From a candidate division FCPU426 bacterium (GTDB lineage: Bacteria > Oederibacteriota > PGYV01 > Palsa-1178): 64,000 nt of DNA. The notes beneath the pieces are model-generated. The model was not told the DNA's origin and ran no database searches. It saw only the letters and a program-made list of their open reading frames with translations. The position numbers were made by a program, and so were the translations under genes. Position 1 is the stretch's first letter; each line of letters opens with the position of its first letter. The DNA lies in assembly GCA_963840035.1 (NCBI GenBank), contig CAWIXE010000002.1, positions 1,056,001 to 1,120,000 of the forward strand. The letters run 5' to 3'. Shown piece after piece: positions 25,656 to 59,457 of this stretch.

Positions 25656-25656
25656 T

Positions 25657-26025: not shown

Positions 26026-26541
26026 GTGAAAAAACTCATTATTGTCCTAGTTGTGCTATTTTTGCCCCTGTCAATGCTGCTGGCAGTGCCTCTTTCCACC
26101 GAAACTTTTACCCCGACAACCACAGACACCTTTACTATTACACCAACAGATACGGTAACACCGACTTCAACAATGACCCATACAGTCAGCCCCACAATTA
26201 CGGCAACCCCTACAATATCGCCGACGTTCACCTGTTCACCGACACCGCAGCCAAAATTATTTGCATACCCGAACCCCGCTGCATTTACCGATAAGATCGC
26301 GGTTGCGTATCCCCTGGATAACGGCAAATTAGCTTCAAAAGTCACAATTGTCATATTTAACATGGGTGGCAACGAGGTTGCAACAATAGTGGATGATATT
26401 CCAGCCAATGAAAACGCGGGTTATACTTCATTTGACATTAAAAAACTTGCGCGCGGCACGTATATATACCGGATAACCATAAGATATGCTGACGGCTCGG
26501 AAGACCGCCTGCCGATCAAAAAATTCGCCGTGCTGAAATAA
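26026..26541 (+). CDS. Small secreted protein: signal peptide + Thr/Pro linker + T9SS-CTD-like domain
   Basis: GTG 26026 after GGAGG; TPT repeats; YPNP...LARGTYIY...KKFAVLK tail. Confidence 0.8.
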   Translation: MKKLIIVLVVLFLPLSMLLAVPLSTETFTPTTTDTFTITPTDTVTPTSTMTHTVSPTITATPTISPTFTCSPTPQPKLFAYPNPAAFTDKIAVAYPLDNGKLASKVTIVIFNMGGNEVATIVDDIPANENAGYTSFDIKKLARGTYIYRITIRYADGSEDRLPIKKFAVLK

Positions 26542-26552
26542 TGGGGGCTAAC

Positions 26553-27497
26553 ATGAAAAAACTTACTCTTTGGGCTTTGCTTTTGACATTAATTGCTTCG
26601 TTTTCATTCGCTTCAACTGCCGATTATAAAGACGGCTCCACCGTGAGCGCCCTTTACAGCCAGGTCGGCGTCGGCGCTGCCGGAGCGGGCATGGCAAACG
26701 CATATACGGGCGCGTGCAATGATTCCACATCGGTATTCTGGAACCCCGCGGGGCTCGCCTCGATGAAGAAAAACGAGAAGGACTGGAACATGTTCTTCGC
26801 GCATAACGTATGGCTAGCTGATTCAATGATAGATAACCTCAGCGTTGCAAAATCATTCAAAAACTACGGCGTTGTCGGACTTGGCGTCTCCTACTATAAC
26901 GCAGGCGGTATGGATTATTACGAGATAAGCTCATCCGGAGAGCCTGTTGACCTCAACAGAAAGTTCTCAGTATACTCAATCGGCGTGAACCTCGCCTATT
27001 CCAACGCGCTCGACAAGGATATTGACTTCGGCGTAACCCTCAAATACCTGCTGGATGTCATTGATAACGACGCCGCAAACGCCTTTTCATTTGACCTGGG
27101 GCTGCGTTATAACTTCCAGCCCTTAAAAGGCCTTTCGTTTAACCTTGTGGCACGCAACTTTGGAGGACAGTTAAGCGACTTTATCATGGCAAAAGGGCTG
27201 ACCCTCGGATTGTTATACTCGCTGCAGCTTGAAAACTGGAACGTGGCGGCCGCGTATGACATCGAAGGAAATGTCCGTTCCGCCGCGGTTCACAGAATCG
27301 GAATCGAAGTTAAGAGCCCGTATATGTTCACCCTTCGCTGCGGATATTTTACGTATGCCAACAGCAGCGTATCAGGCTTTAAGAACATATCAACCGGCAT
27401 AGGAATGAATCTTGATGACAAACACATTGATTTCGCCTACGAACCTTACGGCGATCTGGGAAATGTCTTCAAAGTATCCTTCGGTTCCAACTTCTAA
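26553..27497 (+). CDS. PorV/PorQ-like outer-membrane beta-barrel
   Basis: Signal peptide; GMANAY.G..NDSTSVFWNPAGLA motif; alternating beta-strands; terminal Phe. Confidence 0.8.
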   Translation: MKKLTLWALLLTLIASFSFASTADYKDGSTVSALYSQVGVGAAGAGMANAYTGACNDSTSVFWNPAGLASMKKNEKDWNMFFAHNVWLADSMIDNLSVAKSFKNYGVVGLGVSYYNAGGMDYYEISSSGEPVDLNRKFSVYSIGVNLAYSNALDKDIDFGVTLKYLLDVIDNDAANAFSFDLGLRYNFQPLKGLSFNLVARNFGGQLSDFIMAKGLTLGLLYSLQLENWNVAAAYDIEGNVRSAAVHRIGIEVKSPYMFTLRCGYFTYANSSVSGFKNISTGIGMNLDDKHIDFAYEPYGDLGNVFKVSFGSNF

Positions 27498-27507: not shown

Positions 27508-27548
27508 ATAATAAAAAAGGCGGGCTTTCAGCCCGCCTTTTTTATTAT
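27508..27548. terminator. Bidirectional intrinsic terminator
   Basis: AAAAAAGGCGGGCT-TTC-AGCCCGCCTTTTTT between convergent genes. Confidence 0.85.
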
Positions 27549-27745: not shown

Positions 27746-29116
27746 TTATAGTTTTATTTTATATTCTTTTATCTTCCGCCACAGAGTCGACCTTGAAACG
27801 CCGAGCGCCTTGGCTACTTTTGTATGGTTCACTCCGTATCTGTCAAAAGCCTTCAGAATTGTGGATTTTTCAACCTCAGAAAGCTTGAGGTCCATATCCG
27901 CCGCCTGTTTTCCCCTGCCCTTTACCGGCGCGGTATCATGCGATTCGAGCTGGAAAAACGTCGATATATTATGCAGGTGGACCGGAAGGTCATCAATGCT
28001 TATTATATCGGCCGAGGTCATGGCAAAAGCGTGCTGGATGATGTTATCAAGCTCCCTTACATTGCCCGGATAATCATAATGCATGAGTATCGCTTTTGCC
28101 TTTGGGTCTATGCCAACGATGGACCTGCCTGACATTTTATTGTATTTTTCGATGAAAAAACGCAGCAGCAACGGCACATCCTCTTTGCGTTCTTTCAATG
28201 AGGGTATGTGGATGTGTATCACGTTCAGGCGGTAATACAGGTCCTCCCTGAATTTCTTTTCCTTAATAAGAGCCGAGAGTTCCTGATTCGTCGCGGCAAG
28301 GACCCTTATGTTCACATTACGGACTGATTCGTCGCCCAAACGGCGCAGTTCCTTGTATTCAAGTATGCGCAGCAGTTTAGACTGAAGGTTTAGCGACAGG
28401 TCCCCTATTTCATCGAGAAAAAGCGTGCCTGTATCCGCAAGTTCTATCAGGCCTTTCTTATCTGCCGTGGCGCCTGTAAACGCCCCTTTTTTATACCCGA
28501 ACAATTCCGACTCAAGCAGATTCTCAGGTATTGCCGCGCAGTTTACCGCAATAAAAGGCGAGCTTGCGCGCGCGGAGAGCTCATGTATGGCCCTTGATAT
28601 GAGTTCCTTGCCCGTGCCTGTCTCCCCGGTTATGAGTATGGAACTTTCGCTTTTCGCGACTTTCCTGGCGAGGGCCATGACTTTTTTTATCTTTTCACTT
28701 TTTCCTATGAACCTGGATTCGAAATATTCATCCTTGAGTTCATGCGGCACACTTTTCAGGTCCTTTTCAAGCTTATCAAGGATAAACAGAAGCTCGTGAA
28801 TATTTACAGGTTTTTGTATGTAAAGGAACCCGTCCTTCCTTGCCAGGTCTATGGACTTATCCAGTTTTTCCCTTGAGCTGGCCAGGATAACGCTTAAGTT
28901 AAGGTGCCTTTCCTTTATGAATTTTATAATATTAAGCTCAAGCTCCGGGATGATGTCTGTGTCAAGAATAAGTATTCTGAATTCCTGTTTGCTTATTTTG
29001 TCAAGGAGGGTGGATGAATCCGTGGCTATATACGGCGTGTCGCCCCTGTCTTCAAGGGCGTTATTTATCTTTATCGCGTCGTCCCTGTCTGTCAACGCTA
29101 TGAGTACTTTTGCCAT
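27746..29116 (-). CDS. Sigma-54-dependent response regulator (NtrC family)
   Basis: GETGTGKE, ESELFG, GAFTGA, FLDEIG, FREDLYYRL, PGNVREL, Fis-type HTH. Confidence 0.93.
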   Translation of the reverse strand: MAKVLIALTDRDDAIKINNALEDRGDTPYIATDSSTLLDKISKQEFRILILDTDIIPELELNIIKFIKERHLNLSVILASSREKLDKSIDLARKDGFLYIQKPVNIHELLFILDKLEKDLKSVPHELKDEYFESRFIGKSEKIKKVMALARKVAKSESSILITGETGTGKELISRAIHELSARASSPFIAVNCAAIPENLLESELFGYKKGAFTGATADKKGLIELADTGTLFLDEIGDLSLNLQSKLLRILEYKELRRLGDESVRNVNIRVLAATNQELSALIKEKKFREDLYYRLNVIHIHIPSLKERKEDVPLLLRFFIEKYNKMSGRSIVGIDPKAKAILMHYDYPGNVRELDNIIQHAFAMTSADIISIDDLPVHLHNISTFFQLESHDTAPVKGRGKQAADMDLKLSEVEKSTILKAFDRYGVNHTKVAKALGVSRSTLWRKIKEYKIKL

Positions 29117-31472
29117 TATCTTGATTCTCCTTCAGCTTATTAATCAAATCAGCAAGGCTTTTGTCCTGAGGAAACCTGATAACAGCCGCGTTCAGGTCCT
29201 TAATTGCCTCATCTAACCTGCCCAGCTTAAACAATGCTAAGGCCTTATATAATGACGTTACCGCGTCAGGCGTTTCATTTTCAGACCTCACAAAATAATC
29301 CAACGCTTTTTCAATATTCGATGTTTTAAAATGATACACACCCAGGTTTTTATAAATTATAGCATTTTTATAGTGTTTTTCAAGTAAAAAATCATAAATG
29401 ATACTGGCGCCTTCTAAATCACCGGCAAGCAGCTTTTCAGACGCCTTTAACAGGCCGAATTCCATTCGATCCCCTGCCGGTATTGAATTAATCACTTCAA
29501 TACCGCGCCTAGTTATTTCCGATTTATCACCCATGTAATCAGCTTTTAAAAAAGCACTTAACGCGCTGTCAAGCATGCCAAATTTGTAATAAAGCACCCC
29601 CAGACGCTGGTATGCAGCCGGTATATCCGCCCCTTTTTGGTCTGCCAGAATCAGGCATTTAATTTCATCATTATCGTCGGACATATTGCTGTAGCCTATC
29701 GACATATTGTAAAGTATATTTCCTTCCGGTTTGTCGCCCGGAAAAAGAAGAGCCTTTTTGTTGAGCATGACCGATTCTTTAAAGCGCGAAATACCAAGCA
29801 GAGAACCGGCCTCATTTACCATCGATACCGGATACCACGCCGCAAGGTCCCTGTTGTTTTTATTTAAAGAAGTAAAATCCTCGTAAACCCCCCTGTAGCT
29901 GTAAGCCTCAAAAATACGCGGATTAGACCCTGCTTTTAAATCGCGTGAAATATTCACGGCTATTCCATCCTGCCTCTGGCGGTAAACGTACTGGTCAAGG
30001 TTCAAGTTCACGGCAAAAAAATTGGACCTGTATACCGGCGATGACGAACTATAGTAATCAACCAGCTTTCTCAGGTTGACTGCCTGCTGGTTTGGCATCA
30101 GTTCGGGATGAACCGGATTGCGCGAGTAAAAACCATTAATGCCCCAATTAAAAATAAAAAATGACGCCGTGGCAAACCGCACATCGCTTCTTTTCTTTTC
30201 TATTTCCTGCAGGTAAAATATCGGCATTGCGTTATAGTCGCCGTCAGCAAGGTAAAGCGAGCCGGGTTTTAGCGTCAGCAGTATATTATTGCCGTAATCA
30301 TAAGAAAGGAAATCCCTGGAATTATTGTTTGACGGGTATGAAACAAAGAGCGCGGCAAAAGCCGCCGTCAAAAACAGCGTGAAAGCAGCGGCCTTTGCCG
30401 CCTGATTTTTTATGGAAGATACCAGCTTAAGCAATCCGGTGCCGGACAGCAGCAAAAGGGCAAGCTGTGCCGGCATAAGGAATATATCCATTATCCAGAG
30501 CAATTCCTTCTGGGTCCTGTTATAAAATACGACAAAGAAAACAATTAAAAGAACATATGCCGCCAGGACTTTTACATGTTTCGCCGACTTCCTATGCAGG
30601 ACAACACCGCCGAGAACGCTGAAAGCTATAAAAAACGAGCAATTTTTTACAATGAACGACAATAACTCATACACCTGATTTCTGTACAGCTCAAAAGAAG
30701 GGGCGGCCGCATACACATAACCTTTTCTGAGCACAACCCACATGAACCCCGCCCAGTCTGAAGGGTCTCCCCAGTTGAGTATAGGATGTGCTGCAGCCCT
30801 TATAGGCAGGTAAAGATATGCGCTTGCGCCCAATAGCATGAAAAAACACACAAATGCCCAGTCTGCCGGCTTCAGCCTTTTGTGGTACAAAACAGGAAAA
30901 TACAGCGCTACAGGCGCGAGTATTATCATGCTCGGCCAGTGATTTGCAAGGGATAAACCAAATATAAAAGCAGCCATGTAAAAATCGTTTTTTCTAAAAC
31001 GTTCAAGCAGGTTAAAAGATATATGCAGCAGCGCGGTAAAGAAGACAAGGTTGAGCATGTATATGCCGCCCTTTGCCTCTATAGCCTGGCTCCAGAACAC
31101 CCTTGAGAACGCAAGGGCCATGACAGTAAAAATCGCCGCTGCCTGTATTTGATATCCGGGCGCGCAGCCGCAGAGGACAGACACTTTCATTGACAGCCTG
31201 TAAAGCTGGAACAAAAGCAATAATGACAGCGCCAGGGCAAGCAGGTTTACCCTGAATGCCGGATTGCCGGTATTCAACAGCGTAAATATTTTTGACATCA
31301 TCGTGTAAAGCGGATAAGCCGGCGAATGGCCGATGCCCAGCGTCTGCCCTGCCACAACCGTTTCCGGCGAGTCGTTGTTCTTAAATACCGGGTGCATTGT
31401 GTTCAGATACAGCATGAATACAGCCGCGAAGGCCGCAACTGGAAAAAAAAGCCCGAGGATGCGTTTATCCAT
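29061..31472 (-). CDS. DUF2723 / TMEM260-like GT-C membrane glycosyltransferase with TPRs
   Basis: NDSPE...LGIGHSPAYPLY, FWSQA, GLSLANH, YLYLPIRA..P..NWG; TPR C-terminus. Confidence 0.85.
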   Translation of the reverse strand: MDKRILGLFFPVAAFAAVFMLYLNTMHPVFKNNDSPETVVAGQTLGIGHSPAYPLYTMMSKIFTLLNTGNPAFRVNLLALALSLLLLFQLYRLSMKVSVLCGCAPGYQIQAAAIFTVMALAFSRVFWSQAIEAKGGIYMLNLVFFTALLHISFNLLERFRKNDFYMAAFIFGLSLANHWPSMIILAPVALYFPVLYHKRLKPADWAFVCFFMLLGASAYLYLPIRAAAHPILNWGDPSDWAGFMWVVLRKGYVYAAAPSFELYRNQVYELLSFIVKNCSFFIAFSVLGGVVLHRKSAKHVKVLAAYVLLIVFFVVFYNRTQKELLWIMDIFLMPAQLALLLLSGTGLLKLVSSIKNQAAKAAAFTLFLTAAFAALFVSYPSNNNSRDFLSYDYGNNILLTLKPGSLYLADGDYNAMPIFYLQEIEKKRSDVRFATASFFIFNWGINGFYSRNPVHPELMPNQQAVNLRKLVDYYSSSSPVYRSNFFAVNLNLDQYVYRQRQDGIAVNISRDLKAGSNPRIFEAYSYRGVYEDFTSLNKNNRDLAAWYPVSMVNEAGSLLGISRFKESVMLNKKALLFPGDKPEGNILYNMSIGYSNMSDDNDEIKCLILADQKGADIPAAYQRLGVLYYKFGMLDSALSAFLKADYMGDKSEITRRGIEVINSIPAGDRMEFGLLKASEKLLAGDLEGASIIYDFLLEKHYKNAIIYKNLGVYHFKTSNIEKALDYFVRSENETPDAVTSLYKALALFKLGRLDEAIKDLNAAVIRFPQDKSLADLINKLKENQDNGKSTHSVDRQGRRDKDK

Positions 31473-33487
31473 CAGTGCAGCTCCTGTTTCCGCAGCGTAT
31501 TTAACATGCCGTTAACTTCCCTGTTTTTACTGCCGTTCGCGGCGGCTTTTCCGAGATACAAAGACGCTTCCGCGTAATTTTTTCTGTCATACATTATTTT
31601 TCCCAGCCTTTCCAAAACCTGCGTATTCGAACCGTCTTTTTCCACCGTTCTTTTAAGGTATTTTTCCTCTTTAACAGCGTCTTTTAAATCCCTGTAAACG
31701 CACGCAAGCTTATATAAAACTTCATTTTCAGGTTTATCCCCGGGCATCAGAAGGCATTTATTATAAATGGAAGCGGCATAAAGCAGCTTTCCTTCTGCCG
31801 CGGCAGCGTCCGCCGTATTGATCATGGCCCAGAAATACCAGCTGATTGCCAGATAATTTTCCGGGTTATACCTGAAATACCTGTGGACGCCCCTGTATGA
31901 ATACATGTCAAACAGGAAAAGGTTCCTTATCCCGCCATAAGGAGTGAACCGCACAAGAATCCCTTCCGGCAGCTGATGTACCGGCACATAAACCGGCTTC
32001 CCCGCGGTTTCAAACACTTCTGAAGGGCTGTTCCTGAACACGCCCCTGTCTGGCGCGTATATGGCAATCATCCTCAGTATCGAATGGGTCACGGACTCCT
32101 GAGGAAAATCCACGCCGGTTAATGAATGCAGCCTGCTGATGCCTCTGCTAAAATAAAGCGACTGCGGAAATATAAGCATTATGTCCTTCCTGTATCCATG
32201 CAAACCCTGCATGTACGCAAACGAGAACGAGTTGCAGTCGCCCTCCGAAATAAACGCCGAACCTTCCTCCATGGTCTTCATTTCATTCATCGCAAGGTCA
32301 TATCCGATAAAATAACCGGACGAATCATTATTCCCAAAATTCTTCGCCCCCGTAAAAACCACAGCCGCGGTAACCAGCGCCAAAAAAAGAACGTACCGCG
32401 TCCTGCTCTTAAAAAGCCCTGCCACATGGATGGCCCCGGAAAAAATGACCGGGGAAAGGATGACCACTGCAGGCATCGCAAAAATATCAACCAGCCTTAA
32501 CATGTGGGCCGGGGTGTTGTCATAAAGCACCACAGCAATTGCCACTGCCGCGGCAGTGTATGCGAGCGTGTAAAACAGCATGGCGTTTTTTTTATGCAGC
32601 GCGTAGATTCCCGGTAAAATAAGAATGCCGGCGGCGCCGTAACTTCTTAAGAACTCCGCCGCTATGGCTGCGGCTCTGGCAAGAAAACCGCCATTTCTGA
32701 CCGATTCAACCGGCATATAATTAAGCCTGAAAACATAGCTGAACATACCCGATACGTTTTTAAAATCACCCCAGACAAACGGGCTTGCCGTCGCATTTCT
32801 TAACGCGTAAAAAAGGTAAGGCGAAAGCCCTATTACGAACAATACTGCAGCCCAGATGAAAACCCGCGTATTTGCCTTTTTCCATAGGATAATGGCCGGG
32901 TAAAGAGCCACCGGCGCCATCAGGACCATTGTCTGCCAGTGGTTGGCCAGCGAAAGGCCGTATATAAAAGCCGTCATTAAAAAATATTTCAATTTTGGCG
33001 TTTCATGCATGGCCGCGGCGAGGTATATTATCGACAAAATGAAAAACATGTTCAGCATGTAAATGCCGCCTTTTGCCTCTATGGACTGGTTCCAGAACAC
33101 ACAACCTGAGGCGGCTATCAGCACTGCAAGTAATGAAGCCGGTACGCGTATTGGCCATGTTTCAGCACGAGCGCCAGCGGCCTCCTGCCTGAGAAATCGT
33201 TCCGCGATCGCATAGACCATCAAAAGGGACATTACGGACAATAAAATGGCAAGGATATTCATCCTGAAAGCCGGGTTCCCCAAAGGAATGAGCATGGCGG
33301 CTTTTCCCAGCAGGATATAAACCGGGTAACCCGGCGGGTGCGCTGGCGACAGAGTAAATGCGGCTACTGCGATCTCAGGGGAATCATTATTTTTAAATGA
33401 CGGATTAGCCGTTGTAAGGTATGCGAAAAATATTAAAAGCAAGCAAAGCATGGCCGCGGCGTGCGGCAGGTAACGCCTGAGTTTCAT
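31472..33487 (-). CDS. DUF2723 / TMEM260-like GT-C membrane glycosyltransferase with TPRs
   Basis: NDSPE...AHPPGYPVY, FWNQS, GLSLANH; paralog of the neighbour. Confidence 0.85.
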   Translation of the reverse strand: MKLRRYLPHAAAMLCLLLIFFAYLTTANPSFKNNDSPEIAVAAFTLSPAHPPGYPVYILLGKAAMLIPLGNPAFRMNILAILLSVMSLLMVYAIAERFLRQEAAGARAETWPIRVPASLLAVLIAASGCVFWNQSIEAKGGIYMLNMFFILSIIYLAAAMHETPKLKYFLMTAFIYGLSLANHWQTMVLMAPVALYPAIILWKKANTRVFIWAAVLFVIGLSPYLFYALRNATASPFVWGDFKNVSGMFSYVFRLNYMPVESVRNGGFLARAAAIAAEFLRSYGAAGILILPGIYALHKKNAMLFYTLAYTAAAVAIAVVLYDNTPAHMLRLVDIFAMPAVVILSPVIFSGAIHVAGLFKSRTRYVLFLALVTAAVVFTGAKNFGNNDSSGYFIGYDLAMNEMKTMEEGSAFISEGDCNSFSFAYMQGLHGYRKDIMLIFPQSLYFSRGISRLHSLTGVDFPQESVTHSILRMIAIYAPDRGVFRNSPSEVFETAGKPVYVPVHQLPEGILVRFTPYGGIRNLFLFDMYSYRGVHRYFRYNPENYLAISWYFWAMINTADAAAAEGKLLYAASIYNKCLLMPGDKPENEVLYKLACVYRDLKDAVKEEKYLKRTVEKDGSNTQVLERLGKIMYDRKNYAEASLYLGKAAANGSKNREVNGMLNTLRKQELH

Positions 33488-35331
33488 TTTGCGGCCTTTA
33501 AGCGCGCAGCGTCAACAGCCTTTAAAAGATTTTCAAATTCGGGCTTAGACCCGTTCTTTTCAGTGTAACGAAGAATCGTGCTTTTTGCCTTTTCATAGTC
33601 CCCGTCCACCATGTAAGCGGTCACAAGATTAGTGTACGCCGCGTCATAATGAGGTGCCACATAAATTGCAAGTTCAAGTTTTTTCAGGCATTCTTCCATA
33701 TTTCCAGTCTGTCCGAGAAGCGCCCCGAGCATATTATTGACCTCGGGGCAGTACGGGTTTATCAGCAGGTCTTCCCTGTAGTTTTTTTCCGCCGACTTCA
33801 GGTCCCCTGCCTTTCTGTACTCTTCAGCCGCGAAATAATACTGCGCCACATCCATCTGGGGACAGAGCTCCACGGGCTTCAAAGCGATAACCTTTTCAAA
33901 GTATCCCAGCGCTTCACTGCCCATGTTCTTTTTGGAGTATGAATCGCCTTTTTTCATGCAAAGGTTAGCCGCCATAGTCCTGCCTTCAGTAACGGCAAAA
34001 AACAGCAGGAGGCACACGGAAAGCGCAAGCAGCGCCGATACCCCGCCTTTTTTTATTATAACCGCTTTGGCTCCGGGATAAAATAATGGCAGGCATAGTA
34101 TTGCCGTAAAAAAAACCAGTGTTGTCGCCGGTATGTTATAGAAAGTATTGAAAAATGCGGCGCCTAAAATAGCGGTTATACCGCTTATGACCCCCGCCAA
34201 TACAGGGCTTAAACCGTCCCTGGCAGCGTAGATCCTGTATCCCATGGCATAAAAAGCGAATATGCCCAAAAGGAAAAAACCAAGGCCCAGAAGGCCGGTT
34301 TCCGAGGCGATAAGCAGGTAATTCTGGTGCGGCATCCATGTCACCACATAATCATACATGTTGTTTTTGCCGTCATTTAAGAGTTTTCCCTGATAAAGCG
34401 GATAATTAAGCCTGAATGACCCGATGCCTTTCCCCATTAAAGGCGAATCTTTTATCATAAGCAGGCTTGATTCCCACATCAGGAGACGGTGAACCAAAGA
34501 GCGTTTCTTTTCAGAAGCAAGCGACTTTATCCTTCCTGAGAAAAAAATTCCGCCTGCCACCGCGGCAATCAGAATTATGATGACAGCCGTTGTCAGGTTT
34601 TTTTTATTCCTTTTTATTTTTTCTTTTATGGGGCGCGGGCTAAAAAGCAAATAAATCACAATAAAAGCTGCGGCGCCTGCCGCAAGCCCAAGATAGGCCC
34701 CTATTACCTTTGTATAATAAATACAAATCAGGTGAAGGGCCAGCCCCGCTATTGAAAGGGCCCTGTACCTGGCGGAATAAACCGCGTAAGACAGGAGCAC
34801 AAACGCTGAAAAAAGGAGTTCCCCCGCGAAGAAATCGGGGTTACCGATTGTCCCCAGCGGCCGTCCCATAAAATTCGTATTCCATGCCATTATATCCATG
34901 TCGAAATGCTGCATGATGCCGTAAAACGACATTATGGAACGCGTGAAGATAATGAAGAATATTATCCTTGAGAATGACTTTTCCGTTGAAATATTATATA
35001 TAAAATAGGCGCCTGCAATGTACAATCCGAGTTCAGCAAGGTATTTAAGCGATATGGAAGTGTTAATGGAAAAAAACACCGATATGAGCGCGGCTGACAG
35101 GTATAAACCAAAGGGTAATAACAACTGGTTGTATTTGAAAACCGCCCTTCCCTCATGATAAGACTTCAGCAGGAACACAAATATCAGCAGCGGGATAAAA
35201 AGCCTGATGACCGCGGTTTGCGCGGGCCCGAAAGGGTCAAAAAACGGCTGGTAAAAAATAAAAGCGGAGGCAAAAACAACGAAATTCAGCAGGTTCCTGT
35301 TGAAAAAACCGGCTATTTTTTGTTTATCCAT
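33484..35331 (-). CDS. O-antigen ligase / O-oligosaccharyltransferase-like protein with TPRs
   Basis: GTIGNPD, R..MW....MI.D.PL.G.G.GSF, PHQ.YL..ASETG..G; C-terminal TPRs. Confidence 0.85.
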   Translation of the reverse strand: MDKQKIAGFFNRNLLNFVVFASAFIFYQPFFDPFGPAQTAVIRLFIPLLIFVFLLKSYHEGRAVFKYNQLLLPFGLYLSAALISVFFSINTSISLKYLAELGLYIAGAYFIYNISTEKSFSRIIFFIIFTRSIMSFYGIMQHFDMDIMAWNTNFMGRPLGTIGNPDFFAGELLFSAFVLLSYAVYSARYRALSIAGLALHLICIYYTKVIGAYLGLAAGAAAFIVIYLLFSPRPIKEKIKRNKKNLTTAVIIILIAAVAGGIFFSGRIKSLASEKKRSLVHRLLMWESSLLMIKDSPLMGKGIGSFRLNYPLYQGKLLNDGKNNMYDYVVTWMPHQNYLLIASETGLLGLGFFLLGIFAFYAMGYRIYAARDGLSPVLAGVISGITAILGAAFFNTFYNIPATTLVFFTAILCLPLFYPGAKAVIIKKGGVSALLALSVCLLLFFAVTEGRTMAANLCMKKGDSYSKKNMGSEALGYFEKVIALKPVELCPQMDVAQYYFAAEEYRKAGDLKSAEKNYREDLLINPYCPEVNNMLGALLGQTGNMEECLKKLELAIYVAPHYDAAYTNLVTAYMVDGDYEKAKSTILRYTEKNGSKPEFENLLKAVDAARLKAAK

Positions 35332-35435: not shown

Positions 35436-36500
35436 TTACTTTACCCGCGGCCGCTTATGTGATGCCGCACTCATTGTCCGGGAGTCTGGCAGGTTATAAA
35501 AATCGCCTTCATTGATGACTATCCCAGCCGCGCCTATCGCGCCTGCAGTTTCGCCTAACTTTGCCGGGACTATTTTCGCGGCCGCAAAAGTCAGCGCGAA
35601 CGCCTGTTTCCTTACAGCTTCCTTAAGCGGCGCAAAGAGCCTTTCGCCGGCGTTGATTACACCGCCGGCAATGACAACAACTTCAGGGTTTAAAGTGTTT
35701 ATCTGGTTTGCGACTCCCGCTCCGAGGTATTTAATAAACTCGTCCCATACCGCAATTGCTGTTTTATCCTTCTGTATCATGGCTTCAAAAACCGTCTTGG
35801 ATGTTATCTTATTCAGGTCCCCTTTTACAAACTCCGTCATCATGGATCTTGCGCCTTTTCTTATGGCTTCCCGTGCCGACTCCGCTATGGCGGATGCCGA
35901 AGCATACCGTTCAAAACAGCCTTTTGCCCTGCAGTTACATACCCTGCCGTCCGGATTAAGGGACGTATGGCCAATCTCACCCGCGTTATAATTGGCGCCC
36001 CTTACAAGCCTGCCGTTTATGATTATGCCGCCGCCCACTCCCGTGCCAAGCGTTATTCCAACCACATCTGACGCGCCTTTCGCGGCGCCGACCCATTTTT
36101 CGCCATAGACAGCGCAGTTTGCGTCATTGTCCACACCGACCGGAATGCCGAGGTATTTTTCCAGGGTTGCTTTTAACTTTACATATTTCCATCCGGGCAG
36201 GTTGACAGCCCCTATTATGAGCCCCTTTTTAGAATCCATGGGCCCGGGCGATCCTACCCCGGCGCGCCATATATCCCTCATCGTAAGCCCGGTTTCCTTT
36301 ACAAGCTCCTTTACCTTATCAGCCATGTTCTTCATTACATGGTCCGGCCCATGCTCCGCTTCAGTGGGAAAATGGCTCTGGGCTATTACCTTACCTGCCG
36401 TTGTAACAATAACAGCCATCACGTTTGTACCGCCTAAATCTATGCCCAACACGAATTTTTTTGATTTTGACCCTGATTTTTTCGCCATAAAATTATCCAC
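35436..36500 (-). CDS. ROK family sugar kinase (glucokinase-like)
   Basis: GIDLGGT, NDAN, LGTGVGGG, GEIGH, CNC...GCFE. Confidence 0.92.
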   Translation of the reverse strand: MDNFMAKKSGSKSKKFVLGIDLGGTNVMAVIVTTAGKVIAQSHFPTEAEHGPDHVMKNMADKVKELVKETGLTMRDIWRAGVGSPGPMDSKKGLIIGAVNLPGWKYVKLKATLEKYLGIPVGVDNDANCAVYGEKWVGAAKGASDVVGITLGTGVGGGIIINGRLVRGANYNAGEIGHTSLNPDGRVCNCRAKGCFERYASASAIAESAREAIRKGARSMMTEFVKGDLNKITSKTVFEAMIQKDKTAIAVWDEFIKYLGAGVANQINTLNPEVVVIAGGVINAGERLFAPLKEAVRKQAFALTFAAAKIVPAKLGETAGAIGAAGIVINEGDFYNLPDSRTMSAASHKRPRVK

Positions 36501-51674: not shown

Positions 51675-54600
51675 TTATTTCAAGATAATAATTTTGCCCG
51701 GTTTTCCGGGCTTGCCGCCCTTACCCTGTTCAACAGAGATGAAATATACCCCGTTTGAAAGGCCCTTAAGATAATCTCTGCCAATGCAAAGCAGCTGCGC
51801 TCCCGCGGGCACCGAACTTATCTTCACTTCACGCACAAGCCTGAACGCGCTTGTATATAACCTGAAGGTCACATCCGACGGCCCTGATTTAACATTAATT
51901 GCCGCGTACAGATCCTGAATTACGGGATTGACCGGATTTGGATAAATAACAGGCTCAGACGGCGGTGTCACGGCTGTTTGCGTGGCTGTGGGCGTGTATG
52001 TGGCTGTTGCCGCGGTTGTATTTGTTGCTGTCGGCTGTTTTGTGGGTGTTGATGTCGGAGGAACCGGTGTATTTGTCTGTGTTGATACAGCCGTGGACGT
52101 TGCCGTATTAACCGGCGTATTTGTCTGTGTCGGCGGCAAAGGAGTATCCGTATCAGTCGCCTGCGGCGTCTGTGTAAATGTATTTATAACCTGTGTGAAT
52201 GTTCCCGTCGGATTTGGCGTGGCTGTATCAGATACCGTTTCCGTAAATGTCGGCGTCCCGAGGTAATCAGTAGCTGTAGGCGTGGCTGTCGGCGAATATA
52301 CCGGCGTTGTTGTGCTAGTAGGTGTGATTGTCGGTGTATTTGTCTGCGAACTTGCCGGACTGGAAGTACTTGTTGCAGTAAATGTCGGCGAAGAGCCTGC
52401 CGTGTCCGTGGCTGTCGCGGTTGCGGTACCGGTAAATGTCTGCGTAAAAGTCGGAGAAATTACAGGCGTATTAGTAAGCGTCTTAGTGGCAGTCGATGTG
52501 CGTGTAATTGTTGATGACGCCGTATAAGTAGGTGTAGCCGTAGGCAAAGTCATATTTATCAGCCGTATATTATCCACCATTACAGTGTATGGGTAATTAA
52601 TCAGTTTCTGAAAAGCTATAAATGTAGCCTGCGTATCACCCGGTGCAAGCAGGTCTGCAAGCGGTATCTGTATTGTAATCCAGTAAGGCGGGATTCCGAT
52701 TGGAGAATAATTGGAAACATTAACCGCGCCCACTGTCCAGTTCATAAGAAAGTTGAAATTATCCACGAAGCCCGCGGTTGATTTAATGTCAAACTGCAGG
52801 TAATTATACCCTGCCCTGTTTTCCGCCGGGAACTGCCATGTGTGCGATGAATACCATGCCGAATCAATATAATCAACCCTCATGCCATTGCCCGCATTGC
52901 CTCCGGCTATTTCAGTCAGCCCTCCGCCGTTCACGCTGTTTGTGACTGTACCGTCCGCGAGCCTTGAGCCAACCGTATCTCCGTCATATATGATTACTGA
53001 CGGCCATACGGGCGTGACGCTGTATGTCGGTGTTATTGTAAACGTCGGTGTGGCCGTGTATCCTGACGGGCATGCCGCGGTAAATGCGTTATACATGGCG
53101 TCGAGGAGCGGCTGGCCCTGCCAGGCTATATAATCCCCGGACAAGTCCCACATCATTACCCCGCCTAAATTTCTTGTTGTTATGGCGTAGTTGACTTTGT
53201 CGGTTATTGACTGAGGATCGTCATAGACAATAACTCCCGTGCCTGTGTTTTTTGTAAGGTACGGATTATGAGACACCGCGTCCCAGTGATATGTCCAGCC
53301 GTTTCCTATATATCCGGCAGCTATGGCGTTATAGTTTAAACTGACAACATCCGTACCTGCCGCTCCTCCGCAGCTTGGCGCGCTGCATGTCTGGAAAGGA
53401 GCGGTGTATAATGTGTAATTATGTCCGTAAAACGGCACACCCATTACTATTTTTGACGCGGAAATTCCGCGCGTTACTGTCATATAGTCCACGCCCATTA
53501 CATCGCTCATCCCATCAGGGTCGGATGGGTTTGCGAAAAGCGGCGCGTTATAACCCACATGGTTGCCCCATCCTCCGTGCTGGTCATATGCCATTAAATT
53601 ATAAAAATCCATCGAGCTGTCTATGGCCGCGTAGTCTATCCACTGCCCATAGTAATTAGTCATGGGAATTGCCGCTGTTAAAAGCCAGTGTACGCCGGGC
53701 GGTTGGGCTGCGTTAAATTTGGACCGCAGCTCTGTCATAAGCAAAGTATAATTCGCGCGTTCCACGGGGGTTGCCATGAGTTCCCAGTCCATGTCAAGCC
53801 CGTCATAACCATTGGCCTGTATAAAGCTTACAATGTTATTCTCAAAAGCATTCCTGGCAGCCGGATTGTTTGCCATCTGGGAACACACCGTGTTAGTCCC
53901 TCCGCCTCCGATGGATATAAGGACTTTCACCCCTGCCGCATGCGCGTTTGCGATGAGCGCGGGCTCTATAAACGAAGGCCCGTAATTTAATGAACCATCC
54001 GCGTTTGGCACCACGAAAGAGTGGCATATATGCGTAAGTTTGTTATAGGGTATTTTTGAGGAATCATACGGCAGTGTGCCGTCGTTATAATAATAAGCCA
54101 GCAGGATTTTATTGCACGCGCCCCACGGTCCTGATGTGGCCGTCGGTACCGGTGTATTCGTCGCGGTCTGAGCGGCTGTGGATGTCTTCGTCGCGGTGGC
54201 TGTGGCGCTTTTTGTGGCAGTGTATGTCTGTGTATTTGAAACGGTATATGATGGCGTCGCTGATACGGTTCTTGAATATGTCGGCGTTCCCGTGGCAGTT
54301 ACTGACACGCTTGCCGTTGGTGTCCCGGTGCGGGTTGGCGTAAATGTCGGGGATGTGGCCGGGGTGTTTGTCATTGTCGAGGTGCGCGTGGGCGTGAAAG
54401 TCGGGCTAGGTATGGAATTGGGTATGAAATACAGATCATCGAACCAGGCAATCTTAGTATTAGGCGCAGTGAGCGTTCCGGTCCTCATACCTATGCCTGT
54501 AAACGCGCCCGAATATCCAAAACTTGCTATGGGTACCTGGAAGTGGTTCCACTGGTTCACATTAAATACCCCGCCGTCAGCGAATGTGCTGTTGACGACC

Positions 54601-56648
54601 ACAGAACTTCCGATCTCAACAGTGTCATTTATAAGCTGAAGCCTGAAATTATAATTCGTGTCCGTCAGATATACCCAACCGTCAAACTTCTGGATGGCTG
54701 ACGTATTCATGTCCGGTCCGCCAAAATTCGCCAGTATTCCCCAGTCCGCGGACGAGGTGCTGACCCTGAAAGACTCCGCGCCGTTAATTGTTTTATTCTG
54801 ACCCATATCATTGAGGTTATTCCCGGGGGTCAGCGTATTTGCCGGTGTTGCCGCAGCGCCGCCTAAGCCAATGCCAAAAGCCGGTATCTCGCTGTTAAAG
54901 ACAAGTATTCCGGGCGTTAATATGGAAGTACTCGTGGGTATTGGTACTGCAGTGGGCGCCTCGGAGCATACATTTGCCCAGTCAGCTACAGCGCCCACCC
55001 TGTTCTTCAGCTGCTCTTCATATAATGAAGCAGGTAAAAGGCCTGACTGGTAACCTACCCCTTCATAAAGGACGTTCTGCCTCCAGGATGCCGGGCCAAC
55101 CTGCAATCCGGCGTTGTTTGAAACTACCGTACCGGAAGTGAAAGTACCTGCCGGCGCGTAACCCGCGCCGTCATTTACCTTATAGTTCCCCGCAACACCC
55201 ACTTCCATGGCGTATCCGTCGCTTGAGGGATTTATGTTAACTTCAGCCGCGTGCCACTGGCCCTGGTATCCGTCCCCGTATAAATTCCATACTGCGCCGG
55301 TCCCGAACGATTCATACGCATTGCCGCTCGTGGTCCACCTGTTATAGCCGTTTAACGCGTTGCCGTTGCCCATTATAAACTGGTCCCTTAAAAGCGCGTG
55401 CGCGAACCCGAAATGAGTATCCTCGCTCTCAGCCGCGTCAAATGACTCGCACTGCGTCATGACCACGTAGTGCGACAGCGCCCTGCTGAGTATGAAGTTA
55501 TGCCTCGCCTGCTCGCCATGGCAGCGCTTGATCAAGATATTCTGCGAGCAGTTTACGTAAAAGCCGTAACCCGCGCCGCCGCCCCCGTAGTCCTGCGTCT
55601 TTTTGATAAAACAGTCCTCTATGGTGATGCGCGCGGAATAATCAGGGTGTATCCCGTACCTCGGGAAATTTATCACTGTTACGTCCTTGACCCACCCGTT
55701 TACCACGCCCTCAAAATATATTGCGCAGCCTGACGGAAAACCGGCCGTCCTGCTGCCGTTATATCCGTTATTATTGTCGTCAAAACTTATCGTCATTCCC
55801 GATATCCCGACATTATTTAGCATGCCGTTTGTAGTGCCGCTTGTTTTGATGAATATGGTGCTGTTTGCCGGATTAAGAGTATACGGTATGGGCGCGTCCA
55901 CGGTTATGCCTGACGCGTCCTTGGATAGGACTTTTCTCAGGTATGTAAAGGTGTATTCCCTGTCGCTTGTTGTCCATACGCCGTTGGAGTTAGTGGTATT
56001 GAAGGCCGGCCAGAAATACTGCTGGATGACTATCCAAGAACCCACAGTAACACTCGTGAGGCTTGTCAAACCGGTTATGTAAGTGGACCCTTCCGCGATT
56101 GTATTGTTTACATGCGAGATGTCAGTGCCGCCGTCAACCCAGCCCTTGTTCCAGGCAAAATACCCCTTTTCAAAAGTAAAGACCCCTTCAAAAGCGTTCG
56201 CGTCATCGCTGTAGGCGTGCGTCTTGGGTATGTTTATTTTTGTCAGGCTGCTTCCCGCCCCCTCAACCGAGACGTTGGGGTAGTTTATGCCTATAGGTTT
56301 TGCGGCGGATGTCTGTGTTATTATAAAATTACCGGCGGGTATTTTAACTATGCCCCCGCCTGCCAGGCCGACAGTGTTAATCTTATCCTGAAGTTCCTGG
56401 GAAATATCGCCGGTCCCTGTTATGGTCAGTATATTGCACGGGATATTTGTCTGGAGCGGAGTCTCGCCAAGGTTATAACCGGTATAGGAATAATCCAGGA
56501 GTTTCCAGCTGCGGGAGTTGAAATTCACAGTGGCTGTCTCATATTTGCCGGTGGAGCCGTTATATGGGAATAACTGGGATGTCCATGAAAAGGCATAGGA
56601 ACAAAACATGAGAAACATTGCAGTCAAAGTGATTAACCGTTTATTCAT
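51675..56648 (-). CDS. Large secreted multidomain glycan-active protein: beta-helix + CBM-like + GH18 + CBM-like + T9SS-CTD-like tail
   Basis: Signal peptide from ATG 56648; ISIGG and DGLDMDWE GH18 motifs; GVMMWDL; TPT linkers; YPNP...LSNGVYF...KIIILK tail. Confidence 0.85.
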   Translation of the reverse strand: MNKRLITLTAMFLMFCSYAFSWTSQLFPYNGSTGKYETATVNFNSRSWKLLDYSYTGYNLGETPLQTNIPCNILTITGTGDISQELQDKINTVGLAGGGIVKIPAGNFIITQTSAAKPIGINYPNVSVEGAGSSLTKINIPKTHAYSDDANAFEGVFTFEKGYFAWNKGWVDGGTDISHVNNTIAEGSTYITGLTSLTSVTVGSWIVIQQYFWPAFNTTNSNGVWTTSDREYTFTYLRKVLSKDASGITVDAPIPYTLNPANSTIFIKTSGTTNGMLNNVGISGMTISFDDNNNGYNGSRTAGFPSGCAIYFEGVVNGWVKDVTVINFPRYGIHPDYSARITIEDCFIKKTQDYGGGGAGYGFYVNCSQNILIKRCHGEQARHNFILSRALSHYVVMTQCESFDAAESEDTHFGFAHALLRDQFIMGNGNALNGYNRWTTSGNAYESFGTGAVWNLYGDGYQGQWHAAEVNINPSSDGYAMEVGVAGNYKVNDGAGYAPAGTFTSGTVVSNNAGLQVGPASWRQNVLYEGVGYQSGLLPASLYEEQLKNRVGAVADWANVCSEAPTAVPIPTSTSILTPGILVFNSEIPAFGIGLGGAAATPANTLTPGNNLNDMGQNKTINGAESFRVSTSSADWGILANFGGPDMNTSAIQKFDGWVYLTDTNYNFRLQLINDTVEIGSSVVVNSTFADGGVFNVNQWNHFQVPIASFGYSGAFTGIGMRTGTLTAPNTKIAWFDDLYFIPNSIPSPTFTPTRTSTMTNTPATSPTFTPTRTGTPTASVSVTATGTPTYSRTVSATPSYTVSNTQTYTATKSATATATKTSTAAQTATNTPVPTATSGPWGACNKILLAYYYNDGTLPYDSSKIPYNKLTHICHSFVVPNADGSLNYGPSFIEPALIANAHAAGVKVLISIGGGGTNTVCSQMANNPAARNAFENNIVSFIQANGYDGLDMDWELMATPVERANYTLLMTELRSKFNAAQPPGVHWLLTAAIPMTNYYGQWIDYAAIDSSMDFYNLMAYDQHGGWGNHVGYNAPLFANPSDPDGMSDVMGVDYMTVTRGISASKIVMGVPFYGHNYTLYTAPFQTCSAPSCGGAAGTDVVSLNYNAIAAGYIGNGWTYHWDAVSHNPYLTKNTGTGVIVYDDPQSITDKVNYAITTRNLGGVMMWDLSGDYIAWQGQPLLDAMYNAFTAACPSGYTATPTFTITPTYSVTPVWPSVIIYDGDTVGSRLADGTVTNSVNGGGLTEIAGGNAGNGMRVDYIDSAWYSSHTWQFPAENRAGYNYLQFDIKSTAGFVDNFNFLMNWTVGAVNVSNYSPIGIPPYWITIQIPLADLLAPGDTQATFIAFQKLINYPYTVMVDNIRLINMTLPTATPTYTASSTITRTSTATKTLTNTPVISPTFTQTFTGTATATATDTAGSSPTFTATSTSSPASSQTNTPTITPTSTTTPVYSPTATPTATDYLGTPTFTETVSDTATPNPTGTFTQVINTFTQTPQATDTDTPLPPTQTNTPVNTATSTAVSTQTNTPVPPTSTPTKQPTATNTTAATATYTPTATQTAVTPPSEPVIYPNPVNPVIQDLYAAINVKSGPSDVTFRLYTSAFRLVREVKISSVPAGAQLLCIGRDYLKGLSNGVYFISVEQGKGGKPGKPGKIIILK

Positions 56649-56685
56649 TTTATCCAGCCTTTTCAATATTCCCTCGCCTGGACAT

Positions 56686-56714
56686 ATTTTAGCGTAAAAA
56701 AAGGCAATAGTCAA
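56686..56714 (-). promoter_or_regulatory. Sigma-70-type promoter of the GH18 gene
   Basis: TTGACT-17 bp-TAAAAT. Confidence 0.7.
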
Positions 56715-57825: not shown

Positions 57826-59457
57826 TTACCTGGCCGATGGCCCCTTTAATTTCCAGGCCTGATATTCATTAAAATTCCCGGCAGGGGCATAATTATCCCT
57901 GATATAGTTATCAAGCAGCATGACGCCGCTGCTTAGCGTGCTTTTATTGGGTTCCCTTAAGCTGAAACCCGCGTCATATAATATAACAAGTTTAACTTTT
58001 TTGTTTTTCAGACCTTCTATCATTTTTTGCTGTATCGGCGCGCTGGTGACTATTCCCGGGTCAAACGCGGAGTATTTAAAGGGGCAATCCCTTTTTGCGA
58101 AAAAATACATGAGGACATTATTGTGTGTCAGGCTGTCATGCCTTTGATTTCCTGAAAATATATACTCGCCGGGTTTCGTGTTGTTCCTGATGTACTGTAT
58201 CGCTTTATAGAAACCCTCTGACATCGGTATTCCCCTGCCCGCTCCGGCGCGGCCCGATGAAAGCACATTATACGTGTGATATGCCGGTATGGACACTGTC
58301 AAAACATTGAGTATAACCAGGATGCTTACACACGCAATCTTTGCCGTTTTACCGGCTTTTTTAATTGCCGAGTACACATATGCCTGCAGCACAAAAGATA
58401 TTATTAAAAAAGGCTGAAGGTGCTGGCCGTCAGACCTTATTCTGGCCTGATTAAAAAAAATGACAGTAAGAAGGATAAGGAACCCTCCGAAAATCAGGTC
58501 TATTATGCCCTGCTTGTCAGGCTTTTGCCTTACCCCGTAATAAACCGCGCATAACGCTGAAACAATTATAAAAAACGGGAAATAAAACGGCATGGTGTTT
58601 AAAAATATATGTATGTTTGAGAAATCAAGGGCCGGATACGGCAGGTCCCTGTACGCCGGCGCGTAAATAACAGGATAAATAAAAAGGTCATATAAAAGCG
58701 TATTTAATGGGACGTTTAGCATAAAGTATGTAACAGGCAGTAACAGCACTGCTGCCGCGCCTAAAGCCGGAAGCAGCAGCGGCCTAAAATCCTTTTTGTC
58801 CGTCCTATCCGCGCAAACAAGCGCGCACAGGGCAGCAATTTCGGCGGTTAAGACATAAAATCCGAAATCCTGCCTGAATAAAAACACAAAACCGCAGAAC
58901 ACACCCGCTAAAACCGCCGATATATTTTTCCGGCCGGAAAAATAACGCCTCAATGATTCCACGGAAAGCAGTGAAAAAAATATTGCGGGGATTGAAGGGT
59001 ATCCGTAAGACTCCCATACGCACATCCACATAAGCCCGGCAAAAAAGGTAAGATACGCAGCGGCATTTCCGGATAGCCCCGAAACAATGACAAACAGTAT
59101 TATAAGCACGCATGCCCTGAGTATAGAGTCCCAAAACCGCAGGGTTTCAAGGCTCTCACCGCCGGCTTTAAATGCGGCGGCAGCCGCGTAAAACTGCGCC
59201 GGGGCATAGATTGTATGGAAATCCTTATACGGCAAATATCCCCTTGCCACAAGCGATCCCCCATAAGCGATCAAACCCTCGTCATACATACCTGCCGTAT
59301 TCCCTGCGTTTTCATGGTAAATCAGAAGCAGCGCCACAACGAACATCAAAGAATACTTTATAATAGTTTTAATCACAGCGGATTTCTTCCGCGTCACGGC
59401 TGTGTAATCCGCTTTATTGTGAATCATCCCGTCTGCAGGTCCTGAACTATTTTCCAT
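57826..59457 (-). CDS. GT-C-type (ArnT/PMT-like) membrane glycosyltransferase
   Basis: YDEG...G.LPYKDF...Y.P loop after the first TM; many TMs; soluble C-terminal domain. Confidence 0.7.
   Translation of the reverse strand: MENSSGPADGMIHNKADYTAVTRKKSAVIKTIIKYSLMFVVALLLIYHENAGNTAGMYDEGLIAYGGSLVARGYLPYKDFHTIYAPAQFYAAAAAFKAGGESLETLRFWDSILRACVLIILFVIVSGLSGNAAAYLTFFAGLMWMCVWESYGYPSIPAIFFSLLSVESLRRYFSGRKNISAVLAGVFCGFVFLFRQDFGFYVLTAEIAALCALVCADRTDKKDFRPLLLPALGAAAVLLLPVTYFMLNVPLNTLLYDLFIYPVIYAPAYRDLPYPALDFSNIHIFLNTMPFYFPFFIIVSALCAVYYGVRQKPDKQGIIDLIFGGFLILLTVIFFNQARIRSDGQHLQPFLIISFVLQAYVYSAIKKAGKTAKIACVSILVILNVLTVSIPAYHTYNVLSSGRAGAGRGIPMSEGFYKAIQYIRNNTKPGEYIFSGNQRHDSLTHNNVLMYFFAKRDCPFKYSAFDPGIVTSAPIQQKMIEGLKNKKVKLVILYDAGFSLREPNKSTLSSGVMLLDNYIRDNYAPAGNFNEYQAWKLKGPSAR

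What the first reader, a model, noticed from the sequence alone, without database searches (positions are those of the whole stretch)
29061..35331. Cluster of TMEM260-like and O-OTase-like GT-C enzymes facing the CTD/PorV genes: candidate protein O-glycosylation system for Thr-rich secreted proteins
Seen: overlapping genes for an O-antigen-ligase-like+TPR enzyme and two DUF2723+TPR paralogs (DSPE/HxPxYP motifs). A third DUF2723 (61200-63233) and an ArnT/PMT-like enzyme (57826-59457) lie near the GH18 gene. Both CTD-tailed proteins carry long TPT/TAT stalks. Known: human TMEM260 (DUF2723) is a protein O-mannosyltransferase; ligase-fold enzymes include pilin/protein O-OTases; TPRs often recruit protein substrates. 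Inference: an expanded periplasmic glycosylation machinery that decorates or anchors CTD-exported mucin-like stalks (and possibly the pilin). Together with the PorV pair this is a strong candidate for an undescribed secretion-plus-glycosylation system.
Basis: partly seen in the sequence, partly recalled or inferred. Interest (0 to 1): 0.7.

Follow-up and report, generated by a model that had tools for sequence, protein, structure and literature searches.

The report
Bacterial TMEM260-like sugar transferase operon
An uncultured Goldbacteria-type bacterium has a conserved operon encoding two relatives of the human protein-mannosylating enzyme TMEM260, which keep its five essential active-site residues, and an O-antigen-ligase-like enzyme; they likely add sugars to exported proteins, but in related genomes the neighbouring threonine-rich stalk proteins occur without these enzymes, and the enzymes without stalks.

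Summary
The genes are real. A Wzy_C+TPR ligase-like gene (WaaL fold) overlaps two TMEM260-like genes; these and a third copy keep the five residues essential in human TMEM260 (D52, H67, R264, Y267, catalytic D441). A DPM-synthase-like donor enzyme lies elsewhere in the genome. They are likely periplasmic, TPR-guided protein O-glycosyltransferases.

The proposed stalk-dedicated system is only partly supported. The genome has 9 TMEM260-like, 12 Wzy_C and 39 PorV-like matches and 121 Thr-stalk ORFs. CTD/PorV lie convergent, behind a terminator. For a link: within the order, copy number tracks stalk content (rho 0.76); the locus is syntenic in 13 of 13 informative relatives; in one genome 6 of 25 copies directly follow stalk genes.

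Verdict: a bacterial variant of TMEM260-type glycosylation with unknown clients, no paper found on it. The scan reported this operon before, in another genome (e1-969491).

The parts
33484..35331 (-). WaaL/O-OTase-fold GT-C enzyme (Wzy_C) with C-terminal TPRs, 615 aa
   Evidence: Pfam PF04932 E 5e-15; model pLDDT 84 matches WaaL 7TPG at Z 20.1, rmsd 4.4, 373 residues; R282 and H335 invariant in 13 orthologs
31472..33487 (-). TMEM260-like GT-C paralog, 671 aa; extra copy absent from most relatives
   Evidence: PF11028 E 6e-24; aligns to human TMEM260 9RQL residues 39-488, E 2e-15; D35, H50, R254, Y257, D417; a second copy at this position in only 3 of 13 relatives
29061..31472 (-). TMEM260-like GT-C enzyme with Rossmann-like domain and long TPR tail, 803 aa; the conserved ortholog of the locus
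   Evidence: PF11028 E 2e-19 plus TPRs; 9RQL residues 25-474, E 6e-25; D34, H49, R249, Y252, D412; GT-C fold hits ALG12 Z 25.4, ArnT 24.9, Pmt 24.6
27746..29116 (-). sigma54-dependent activator with receiver domain, last gene of the run
   Evidence: Pfam; 56-nt overlap with 29061; same place in 13 of 13 informative relatives
35436..36500 (-). ROK-family sugar kinase-like gene upstream of the ligase
   Evidence: PF00480 E 7e-72; next to the ligase in 15 of 15 loci
27508..27548 (.). bidirectional intrinsic terminator-like hairpin between PorV and the convergent operon
   Evidence: 19-pair stem; a consensus match only
26541..27497 (+). PorV-family outer-membrane barrel, convergent neighbour
   Evidence: NF033709 126.8 bits, cut-off 90; 1 of 39 matches in the genome
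26026..26541 (+). 171-aa passenger-less cargo: signal peptide, (XT)n stalk, type A CTD
   Evidence: PF18962 and TIGR04183; translation; hits at E<1e-20 in 23 of 24 order genomes
61200..63233 (-). third TMEM260-like paralog (DSGE type), unlinked, in another clade
   Evidence: PF11028 E 4e-20; D28, H43, R244, Y247, D412; tree
57826..59457 (-). multi-pass membrane protein, possibly GT-C; family not established
   Evidence: no Pfam or PDB hit; Atlas neighbours 10-11% PMT_2
51675..56714 (-). GH18 secreted protein with (XT)n stalks and a CTD-like tail; a possible client, not shown
   Evidence: PF00704; stalk runs; the tail was judged by eye, no CTD family hit

Best explanation
The operon encodes two TMEM260-type GT-C enzymes and one WaaL-fold enzyme that likely glycosylate exported proteins in the periplasm, each predicted to pick its clients with its own TPR tail, as members of a genome-wide panel of paralogs rather than a machine dedicated to the neighbouring Thr stalks. 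Steps: (1) shown: folds, domain order and the five TMEM260-essential residues. (2) Inferred: a cytoplasmic DPM-synthase-like GT2 (G000:C1:489660) makes polyprenol-phosphate-hexose, probably mannose, which is flipped outwards. (3) Inferred from human TMEM260: the TPRs bind an extended, newly exported polypeptide, the D441-equivalent Asp activates a Ser/Thr, and one sugar is transferred. (4) Inferred from WaaL/O-OTases: the ligase-fold enzyme transfers an Und-PP-linked oligosaccharide en bloc to a protein or to a sugar already on it. (5) Untested: who the clients are. CTD cargo, stalked or not, is a likely part of them in this order, but stalks are neither needed nor always served by this family.
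For: D52, H67, R264, Y267 and D441 are each essential in human TMEM260 (bioRxiv 10.64898/2026.03.17.711096, parts 1-3 of 6 read). D52, H67 and D441 equivalents are kept in 9 of 9 G000 paralogs and R264 in 8 of 9; all five are kept in the three window copies and are invariant in 13 orthologs of 29061. Sequence similarity to 9RQL covers the GT-C and Rossmann-like parts, and in human TMEM260 the TPR domain suffices for acceptor-peptide binding. The nine paralogs are only 18-31% identical, which fits different clients. The ligase model matches WaaL, the fold shared by all O-OTases (PMC12645811, passages). The DPMS-like GT2 matches P. furiosus DPMS 5MLZ at E 4.5e-32, against 8e-11 for ArnC. It is found in 93 of 99 phylum genomes, and 5 of the 6 misses have at most one TMEM260-like copy. 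In 12 of 15 regions from stalk-less families where copies were called and stalks scored, and in all 15, no stalk gene lies beside them; by eye the neighbours are mostly housekeeping genes.
Against: No acceptor or donor was tested. The R355 position, which contacts mannose in TMEM260 (R355A leaves about 20% activity), is Ile, Pro, Val or Thr in 8 of 9 paralogs, so the sugar may differ. The genome has no TIG/IPT domain and no TMEM260 sequon. The best fold hits include ALG12 and ArnT, which act on lipid-linked acceptors, and LpxC is present, so a lipid or LPS acceptor is possible, above all for the ligase. Within the order the data lean towards stalk clients more than this reading needs.
Confidence: 0.55

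Rival explanations
1. One reading: in Goldbacteria these enzymes, above all the 29061 clade, are the dedicated glycosyltransferases of the (XT)n stalks of CTD/PorV cargo, and other lineages use other GT-C enzymes for the same job.
For: Within the order (24 genomes), copy number against stalk hits gives rho 0.76, partial on genome size 0.59, and 0.73/0.58 without G077. In G077, 6 of 25 copies lie directly downstream of a stalk gene on the same strand, against 15 of 337 background genes (Fisher p 0.0016); all 6 are in the 29061 clade. The 29061-sigma54-PorV arrangement holds in 13 of 13 informative relatives. In G000, 7 of 9 copies lie within 8 kb of a stalk gene (background 0.37, p 0.015; one of four thresholds tried). 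TMEM260 modifies extended peptides. Precedent: alternating Thr/Pro linkers of C. bescii CelA, whose glycosylation needs a GT39 enzyme (PMC6151902, passages).
Against: Families f16-f17 (15 genomes) have 35-817 stalk-pattern hits but 0-1 PF11028 matches. A protein query finds 0 of 4 and 1 of 11, the DSPE motif 0 of 15, and the two single copies read are divergent, with altered motifs. Families f11-f15 (18 genomes) have 2-16 copies and no stalk hit, and f11 has the DSPE type in 5 of 5. Phylum rho 0.11 (p 0.26), family medians -0.05, f22 partial 0.02. Within the order both subfamilies track stalks about equally (0.68 and 0.63), as a general expansion would. In G000 1 of 9 copies is adjacent to a stalk gene (background 156 of 2255). 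The G077 copies are recent duplicates, not independent. Convergent pairs are often kept anyway (4 of 9 between G077 and G000). 24 PMT_2 matches in G000 are alternative stalk enzymes.
Confidence: 0.23
2. The enzymes act on envelope glycans or lipids: the ligase is a WaaL/Wzy for LPS or a polymer, and the TMEM260-like proteins decorate lipid-linked glycans, with the TPRs binding partner proteins.
For: LpxC present (E 1e-81). WaaL is the closest solved fold of the ligase, and Wzy_C does not separate WaaL from O-OTases (PMC12645811). ALG12 and ArnT tie for the best fold hit of 29061. Other paralogs lie beside GT4, GT9, YfhO and PMT_2 genes.
Against: The closest sequence relative with a known function is a protein O-mannosyltransferase, with its luminal catalytic base and TPR architecture kept. 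Twelve Wzy_C matches, most of them 590-770-aa proteins, are more than LPS ligation would need; one 418-aa copy is a better WaaL candidate (inference).
Confidence: 0.16
3. Some copies, for example the fast-evolving 31472, are degenerate or scaffolding membrane TPR proteins without transferase activity.
For: 31472 is on a long branch (1.51) and absent from most relatives.
Against: It keeps all five essential residues in an intact frame.
Confidence: 0.05

Closest known systems
Human TMEM260 (CAZy GT117, Pfam PF11028, PDB 9RQL/9RQM/9RQN)
   Same: GT-C module, Rossmann-like domain, TPR tail; D52, H67, R264, Y267 and D441 equivalents. PMC10214176 (passages) already notes distant homologs in bacteria.
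   Different: Nine divergent paralogs instead of one; R355 not kept in 8 of 9; DSPE instead of DSGE in the two cluster genes; a longer TPR tail in 29061; no IPT domain or sequon in the genome; paired with a WaaL-fold enzyme.
WaaL O-antigen ligase (PDB 7TPG) and the O-OTases PglL, PglS, TfpO, TfpM
   Same: Wzy_C domain and WaaL fold.
   Different: Fused C-terminal TPRs; no PglL_A or Wzy_C_2 hit; 12 Wzy_C matches in the genome; the acceptor is unknown and no pilin gene is adjacent.
Bacteroidota general O-glycosylation of T9SS cargo
   Same: [quoted passage not shown] This genome has CTD cargo, PorV-like barrels and a SprA-like gene.
   Different: The Bacteroidota sequon is D(S/T)X, not (XT)n stalks. 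The SprA-like match is under the curated cut-off. No C25 peptidase (PorU) was found, but that search rang in no control.
GT39 glycosylation of Thr/Pro linkers in Caldicellulosiruptor bescii (Cbes_1864, CelA)
   Same: A GT-C enzyme is needed for glycosylation of secreted enzymes that carry alternating Thr linkers (PMC6151902, passages).
   Different: Different family (GT39/PMT, not TMEM260-like), a monoderm host, and shown by deletion. Here the stalk link is not shown.

Membership tests
TMEM260-like / GT117 (PF11028) | PF11028 match over the curated cut-off | tested here: met
   70-85 bits against 24.2 for the three window genes
TMEM260-like / GT117 (PF11028) | GT-C module followed by Rossmann-like and TPR domains | tested here: met
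   Alignment to 9RQL over the GT-C and Rossmann-like parts; model of 29061; GT-C fold hits. TPR not tested for 61200
TMEM260-like / GT117 (PF11028) | Essential residues D52, H67, R264, Y267, D441 | tested here: met
TMEM260-like / GT117 (PF11028) | Mannose-contacting R355 (partly needed) | tested here: not met
   Ile in 29061 and 31472, Pro in 61200; kept in 1 of 9 paralogs. Alignment-based; an error of one column cannot be excluded
TMEM260 pathway (IPT O-mannosylation) | IPT/TIG-domain clients with the P-x5-P-x3-G-P-x2-G/A-G-G-x2-T/S sequon | tested here: not met
   No PF01833 match (two controls rang); no sequon among 3021 ORFs
TMEM260-like / GT117 (PF11028) | Transfer of mannose from polyprenol-P-Man to protein Ser/Thr | not testable with these tools
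   Candidate donor synthase present; activity needs experiment
TMEM260-like / GT117 (PF11028) | Direct structural superposition on TMEM260 | tested here: inconclusive
   9RQL is not among the rows listed by the fold searches; the link rests on sequence
WaaL / O-OTase (Wzy_C) | Wzy_C domain and WaaL fold | tested here: met
   PF04932 56 bits against 31.7; 7TPG Z 20.1
WaaL / O-OTase (Wzy_C) | Conserved periplasmic Arg/Arg/His of WaaL | tested here: inconclusive
   K/R208, R282 and H335 are conserved; their equivalence to the WaaL catalytic residues is recalled, and the paper could not be read
PglL/PglS O-OTases | PglL_A and Wzy_C_2 domains | tested here: not met
   Not among the Pfam hits of 33484; criterion from PMC12645811; TfpO/TfpM also lack them
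   18 genomes with enzymes and no stalks, 18 with stalks and at most one copy, of 99; met within the order only
Type IX secretion system | SprA translocon, PorV, CTD cargo, PorU sortase | tested here: inconclusive
   PorV and CTD met; SprA-like 2177-aa frame under the cut-off; C25 search empty with silent controls; motor genes not tested

The most novel reading that the evidence does not exclude
The recurring ligase + TMEM260-like gene pair is a two-step bacterial protein O-glycosylation pathway: the TMEM260-like enzyme primes Thr residues of T9SS-like cargo (in Goldbacteria the (XT)n stalks) with one hexose, and the TPR-tailed WaaL-fold enzyme ligates an Und-PP oligosaccharide or polymer onto that primer, coating or tethering cargo without a PorU sortase. 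The pair occurs twice in G000 (this window and C1:976027/978212), across the order, and in families f18 and f19.
Probability: 0.15. Interest if true: 0.78.

Novelty: new variant of a known kind. Interest (0 to 1): 0.43.

Why it matters
My searches found no paper that characterises a bacterial TMEM260 homolog. These copies keep the whole catalytic set and come as natural panels of up to 25 paralogs with divergent TPR tails, so they would be a tractable model for how TPR-guided GT-C enzymes choose clients, for the origin of a human disease enzyme, and for glycoengineering. The family also has a match in B. thetaiotaomicron (control), which makes it a testable candidate for the enzyme that starts Bacteroidota O-glycans; that this enzyme is unidentified is recalled, not checked. 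Interest is limited because the family is already annotated, glycosylation of T9SS cargo and of Thr linkers is known, the host is uncultured, and the stalk link is not obligatory.

Tried and rejected
The search for related loci with the ligase alone found nothing. A looser (S/T)P linker pattern in five stalk-less genomes gave 0-3 hits in four and 90 in GC-rich G001 (control 46; the listed hits look out of frame), so no other stalk type showed up. A sigma54 promoter scan found 0 of 121 stalk genes and 11 of 2569 others; one hit lies inside the 26026 gene upstream of PorV and was not pursued. The idea that only the DSPE subfamily tracks stalks came from a sample biased to top PF11028 hits and was rejected by the motif scans. 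PF02366 (95 of 99) and PF13231 (99 of 99) do not single out a stalk enzyme. Foldseek for 29061 was dominated by TPR proteins and did not list TMEM260. A complex prediction of 29061 with the 26026 protein gave no answer (score 0.00). hhalign of 57826 against the 29061 alignment was not significant. The WaaL structure paper could not be obtained. The tree is the quick method with SH-aLRT only; the careful search did not finish. No RNA or read data were examined.
Full report
Observation. The window lies in G000 (3.46 Mb, 98% complete). Record titles of loci holding close relatives include Candidatus Goldbacteria/Goldiibacteriota (3 of 27 titles; the rest are unclassified or labelled otherwise), so I call the order Goldbacteria-type. 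On the minus strand run a ROK kinase-like gene, a Wzy_C+TPR gene (33484-35331), two PF11028 genes (31472-33487, 29061-31472) and a sigma54 activator, the last four overlapping. On the plus strand, convergent and behind a terminator-like hairpin, lie a 171-aa CTD protein and a PorV-family gene. A third PF11028 gene is at 61200-63233. The 57826 protein could not be placed. The stalks are strict (XT)n repeats.

What the enzymes are. 29061 and 31472 align with human TMEM260 over about 450 residues (E 6e-25 and 2e-15). The TMEM260 structure preprint (10.64898/2026.03.17.711096; parts 1-3 of 6 read, supplements closed) reports that D52A, H67, R264A, Y267A and D441A substitutions abolish activity, that D441 is the catalytic base, that R355A leaves about 20%, and that the TPR domain suffices to bind an extended acceptor peptide. 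All five essential positions are kept in the three window copies and invariant in 13 orthologs. Among the nine G000 paralogs D52, H67 and D441 are kept in 9, R264 in 8, R355 in 1. The 29061 model (pLDDT 85) matches GT-C enzymes (ALG12 Z 25.4, ArnT 24.9, Pmt 24.6). The 33484 model matches WaaL (Z 20.1, 373 residues). A 234-aa GT2 elsewhere matches archaeal DPM synthase at E 4.5e-32 (I tested this one of 17 GT2 matches, chosen by eye). It has hits in 93 of 99 phylum genomes; five of the six misses have at most one TMEM260-like copy, and in family f18 the two genomes without the family also lack it. The weaker hits in f16-f17 may reflect distance alone.

The cluster in its genome. G000 has 9 PF11028 matches, 12 Wzy_C, 24 PMT_2 (three of them PF11028 genes), 39 PorV-family and 121 ORFs with Thr stalks. 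One of the nine copies is adjacent to a stalk gene (background 156 of 2255); 4 of 9 are within 5 kb (background 0.26, p 0.18) and 7 of 9 within 8 kb (0.37, p 0.015). The ligase-plus-TMEM260 pair recurs at C1:976027/978212, in 2 of 20 sampled regions from other families, and with a 2.6-kb gap in a stalk-less f11 genome.

Synteny. Of 15 loci around the best ligase orthologs, 13 reach far enough. All 13 keep ligase-29061-sigma54 and the convergent PorV; 10 show the small CTD gene next to it and one another stalk protein. A second TMEM260-like gene in the 31472 position occurs in 3. Eight of 24 order genomes gave no ortholog-level ligase hit, yet in four of these the 29061 and CTD orthologs still share a contig 3-4 kb apart. 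Gene order is generally well kept in this order: 120 of 158 co-oriented and 4 of 9 convergent neighbour pairs are shared between G077 and G000. So the synteny is compatible with a link but is weak evidence for one.

The profiling test. In 99 phylum genomes, PorV-family genes occur in all. A TxTxTxTPTxTxTxT pattern occurs in 81 and PF11028 in 93. Eighteen genomes (f11-f15) have 2-16 copies and no stalk hit; eighteen have stalks and at most one copy; 63 have both. For f16-f17 the absence holds with a protein query (0 of 4 and 1 of 11) and a motif scan (0 of 15), although these genomes carry many close relatives of the 26026 stalk-plus-CTD protein. The two single copies I read there have altered motifs. 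The DSPE subtype of the window genes also occurs in 5 of 5 stalk-less f11 genomes. Correlation is 0.11 across genomes and -0.05 across 23 family medians. Against this, within the order rho is 0.76 (partial 0.59), and in G077 6 of 25 copies directly follow a stalk gene (15 of 337 in background, p 0.0016), all in the 29061 clade (quick tree). Three of 20 regions from other families also show a stalk gene adjacent. Kin are not independent, assemblies are fragmented, pattern counts reflect repeat length as well as gene number, and both subfamilies covary alike.

Mechanism and verdict. The best reading is a panel of TPR-guided periplasmic protein O-glycosyltransferases fed by a polyprenol-phosphate-hexose, with the ligase-fold partner adding a lipid-linked oligosaccharide (0.55). 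Stalk dedication in this order (0.23) and lipid or glycan acceptors (0.16) remain open. It works like TMEM260 by every feature that could be tested except R355, and it is not the IPT pathway.

Literature. PMC10214176 (passages) mentions distant bacterial homologs only. PMC12645811, PMC10897501, PMC6151902 and PMC7031533 were read as passages. Searches for DUF2723+glycosyl (1 paper), TMEM260+bacterial+mannosyltransferase (6), GT117+bacteria (6), TMEM260+Bacteroid (0) and ligase+TPR+pilin (1) listed no study of such bacterial enzymes, judged from titles and abstract starts. Subscription papers and bioRxiv supplements were not visible and may hold bacterial alignments.

Noticed in passing
window 26026-27497: The 26026 protein has no passenger domain (signal peptide, stalk, CTD), overlaps its PorV gene by one base, and has hits at E<1e-20 in 23 of 24 order genomes. 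It may be a signalling or housekeeping substrate of the export route.
   Followed up: partly
genome-wide, G000: 223 stalk segments (30,358 residues by my window rule) have strict period-2 Thr, as on one face of a beta-strand; 20 of 121 carriers have a lipobox-like motif. The pattern is in 81 of 99 phylum genomes.
   Followed up: partly
window 27580-27700: Palindromic intergenic element between the terminator and the sigma54 gene, resembling REP/Rickettsia-type palindromic elements (resemblance recalled; seen).
   Followed up: no
window 36707-36791 (-): tRNA-Leu(GAG) between the ROK gene and the 4-TM holin-like gene.
   Followed up: no
window 25500-25660: Short tandem heptamer-like repeats in the intergenic region before the S41 peptidase gene.
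   Followed up: no
window 27746-29116: The sigma54 activator has a receiver domain but no histidine kinase nearby; one sigma54-like site lies inside the 26026 gene upstream of PorV, unproven.
   Followed up: partly
G000:C2:371719-379652: A short (418-aa) Wzy_C gene lies about 3 kb upstream of a 2177-aa SprA-like frame.
   Followed up: no
L044 (G000:C3:192001-212000): The one paralog that keeps R355 lies convergent to a nucleotidyltransferase and phosphomannomutase-like pair, with GT4, GT9 and an initiating sugar transferase upstream.
   Followed up: partly
control genomes: Bacteroides thetaiotaomicron is the only one of 14 controls with PF11028 over the cut-off; a candidate for the start of Bacteroidota O-glycosylation (inference).
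   Followed up: no
G077 (L058-L074, L099-L109): Lineage-specific expansion of the 29061 clade to 15 sampled copies, several behind giant CTD proteins with NHL or Kelch propellers.
   Followed up: yes
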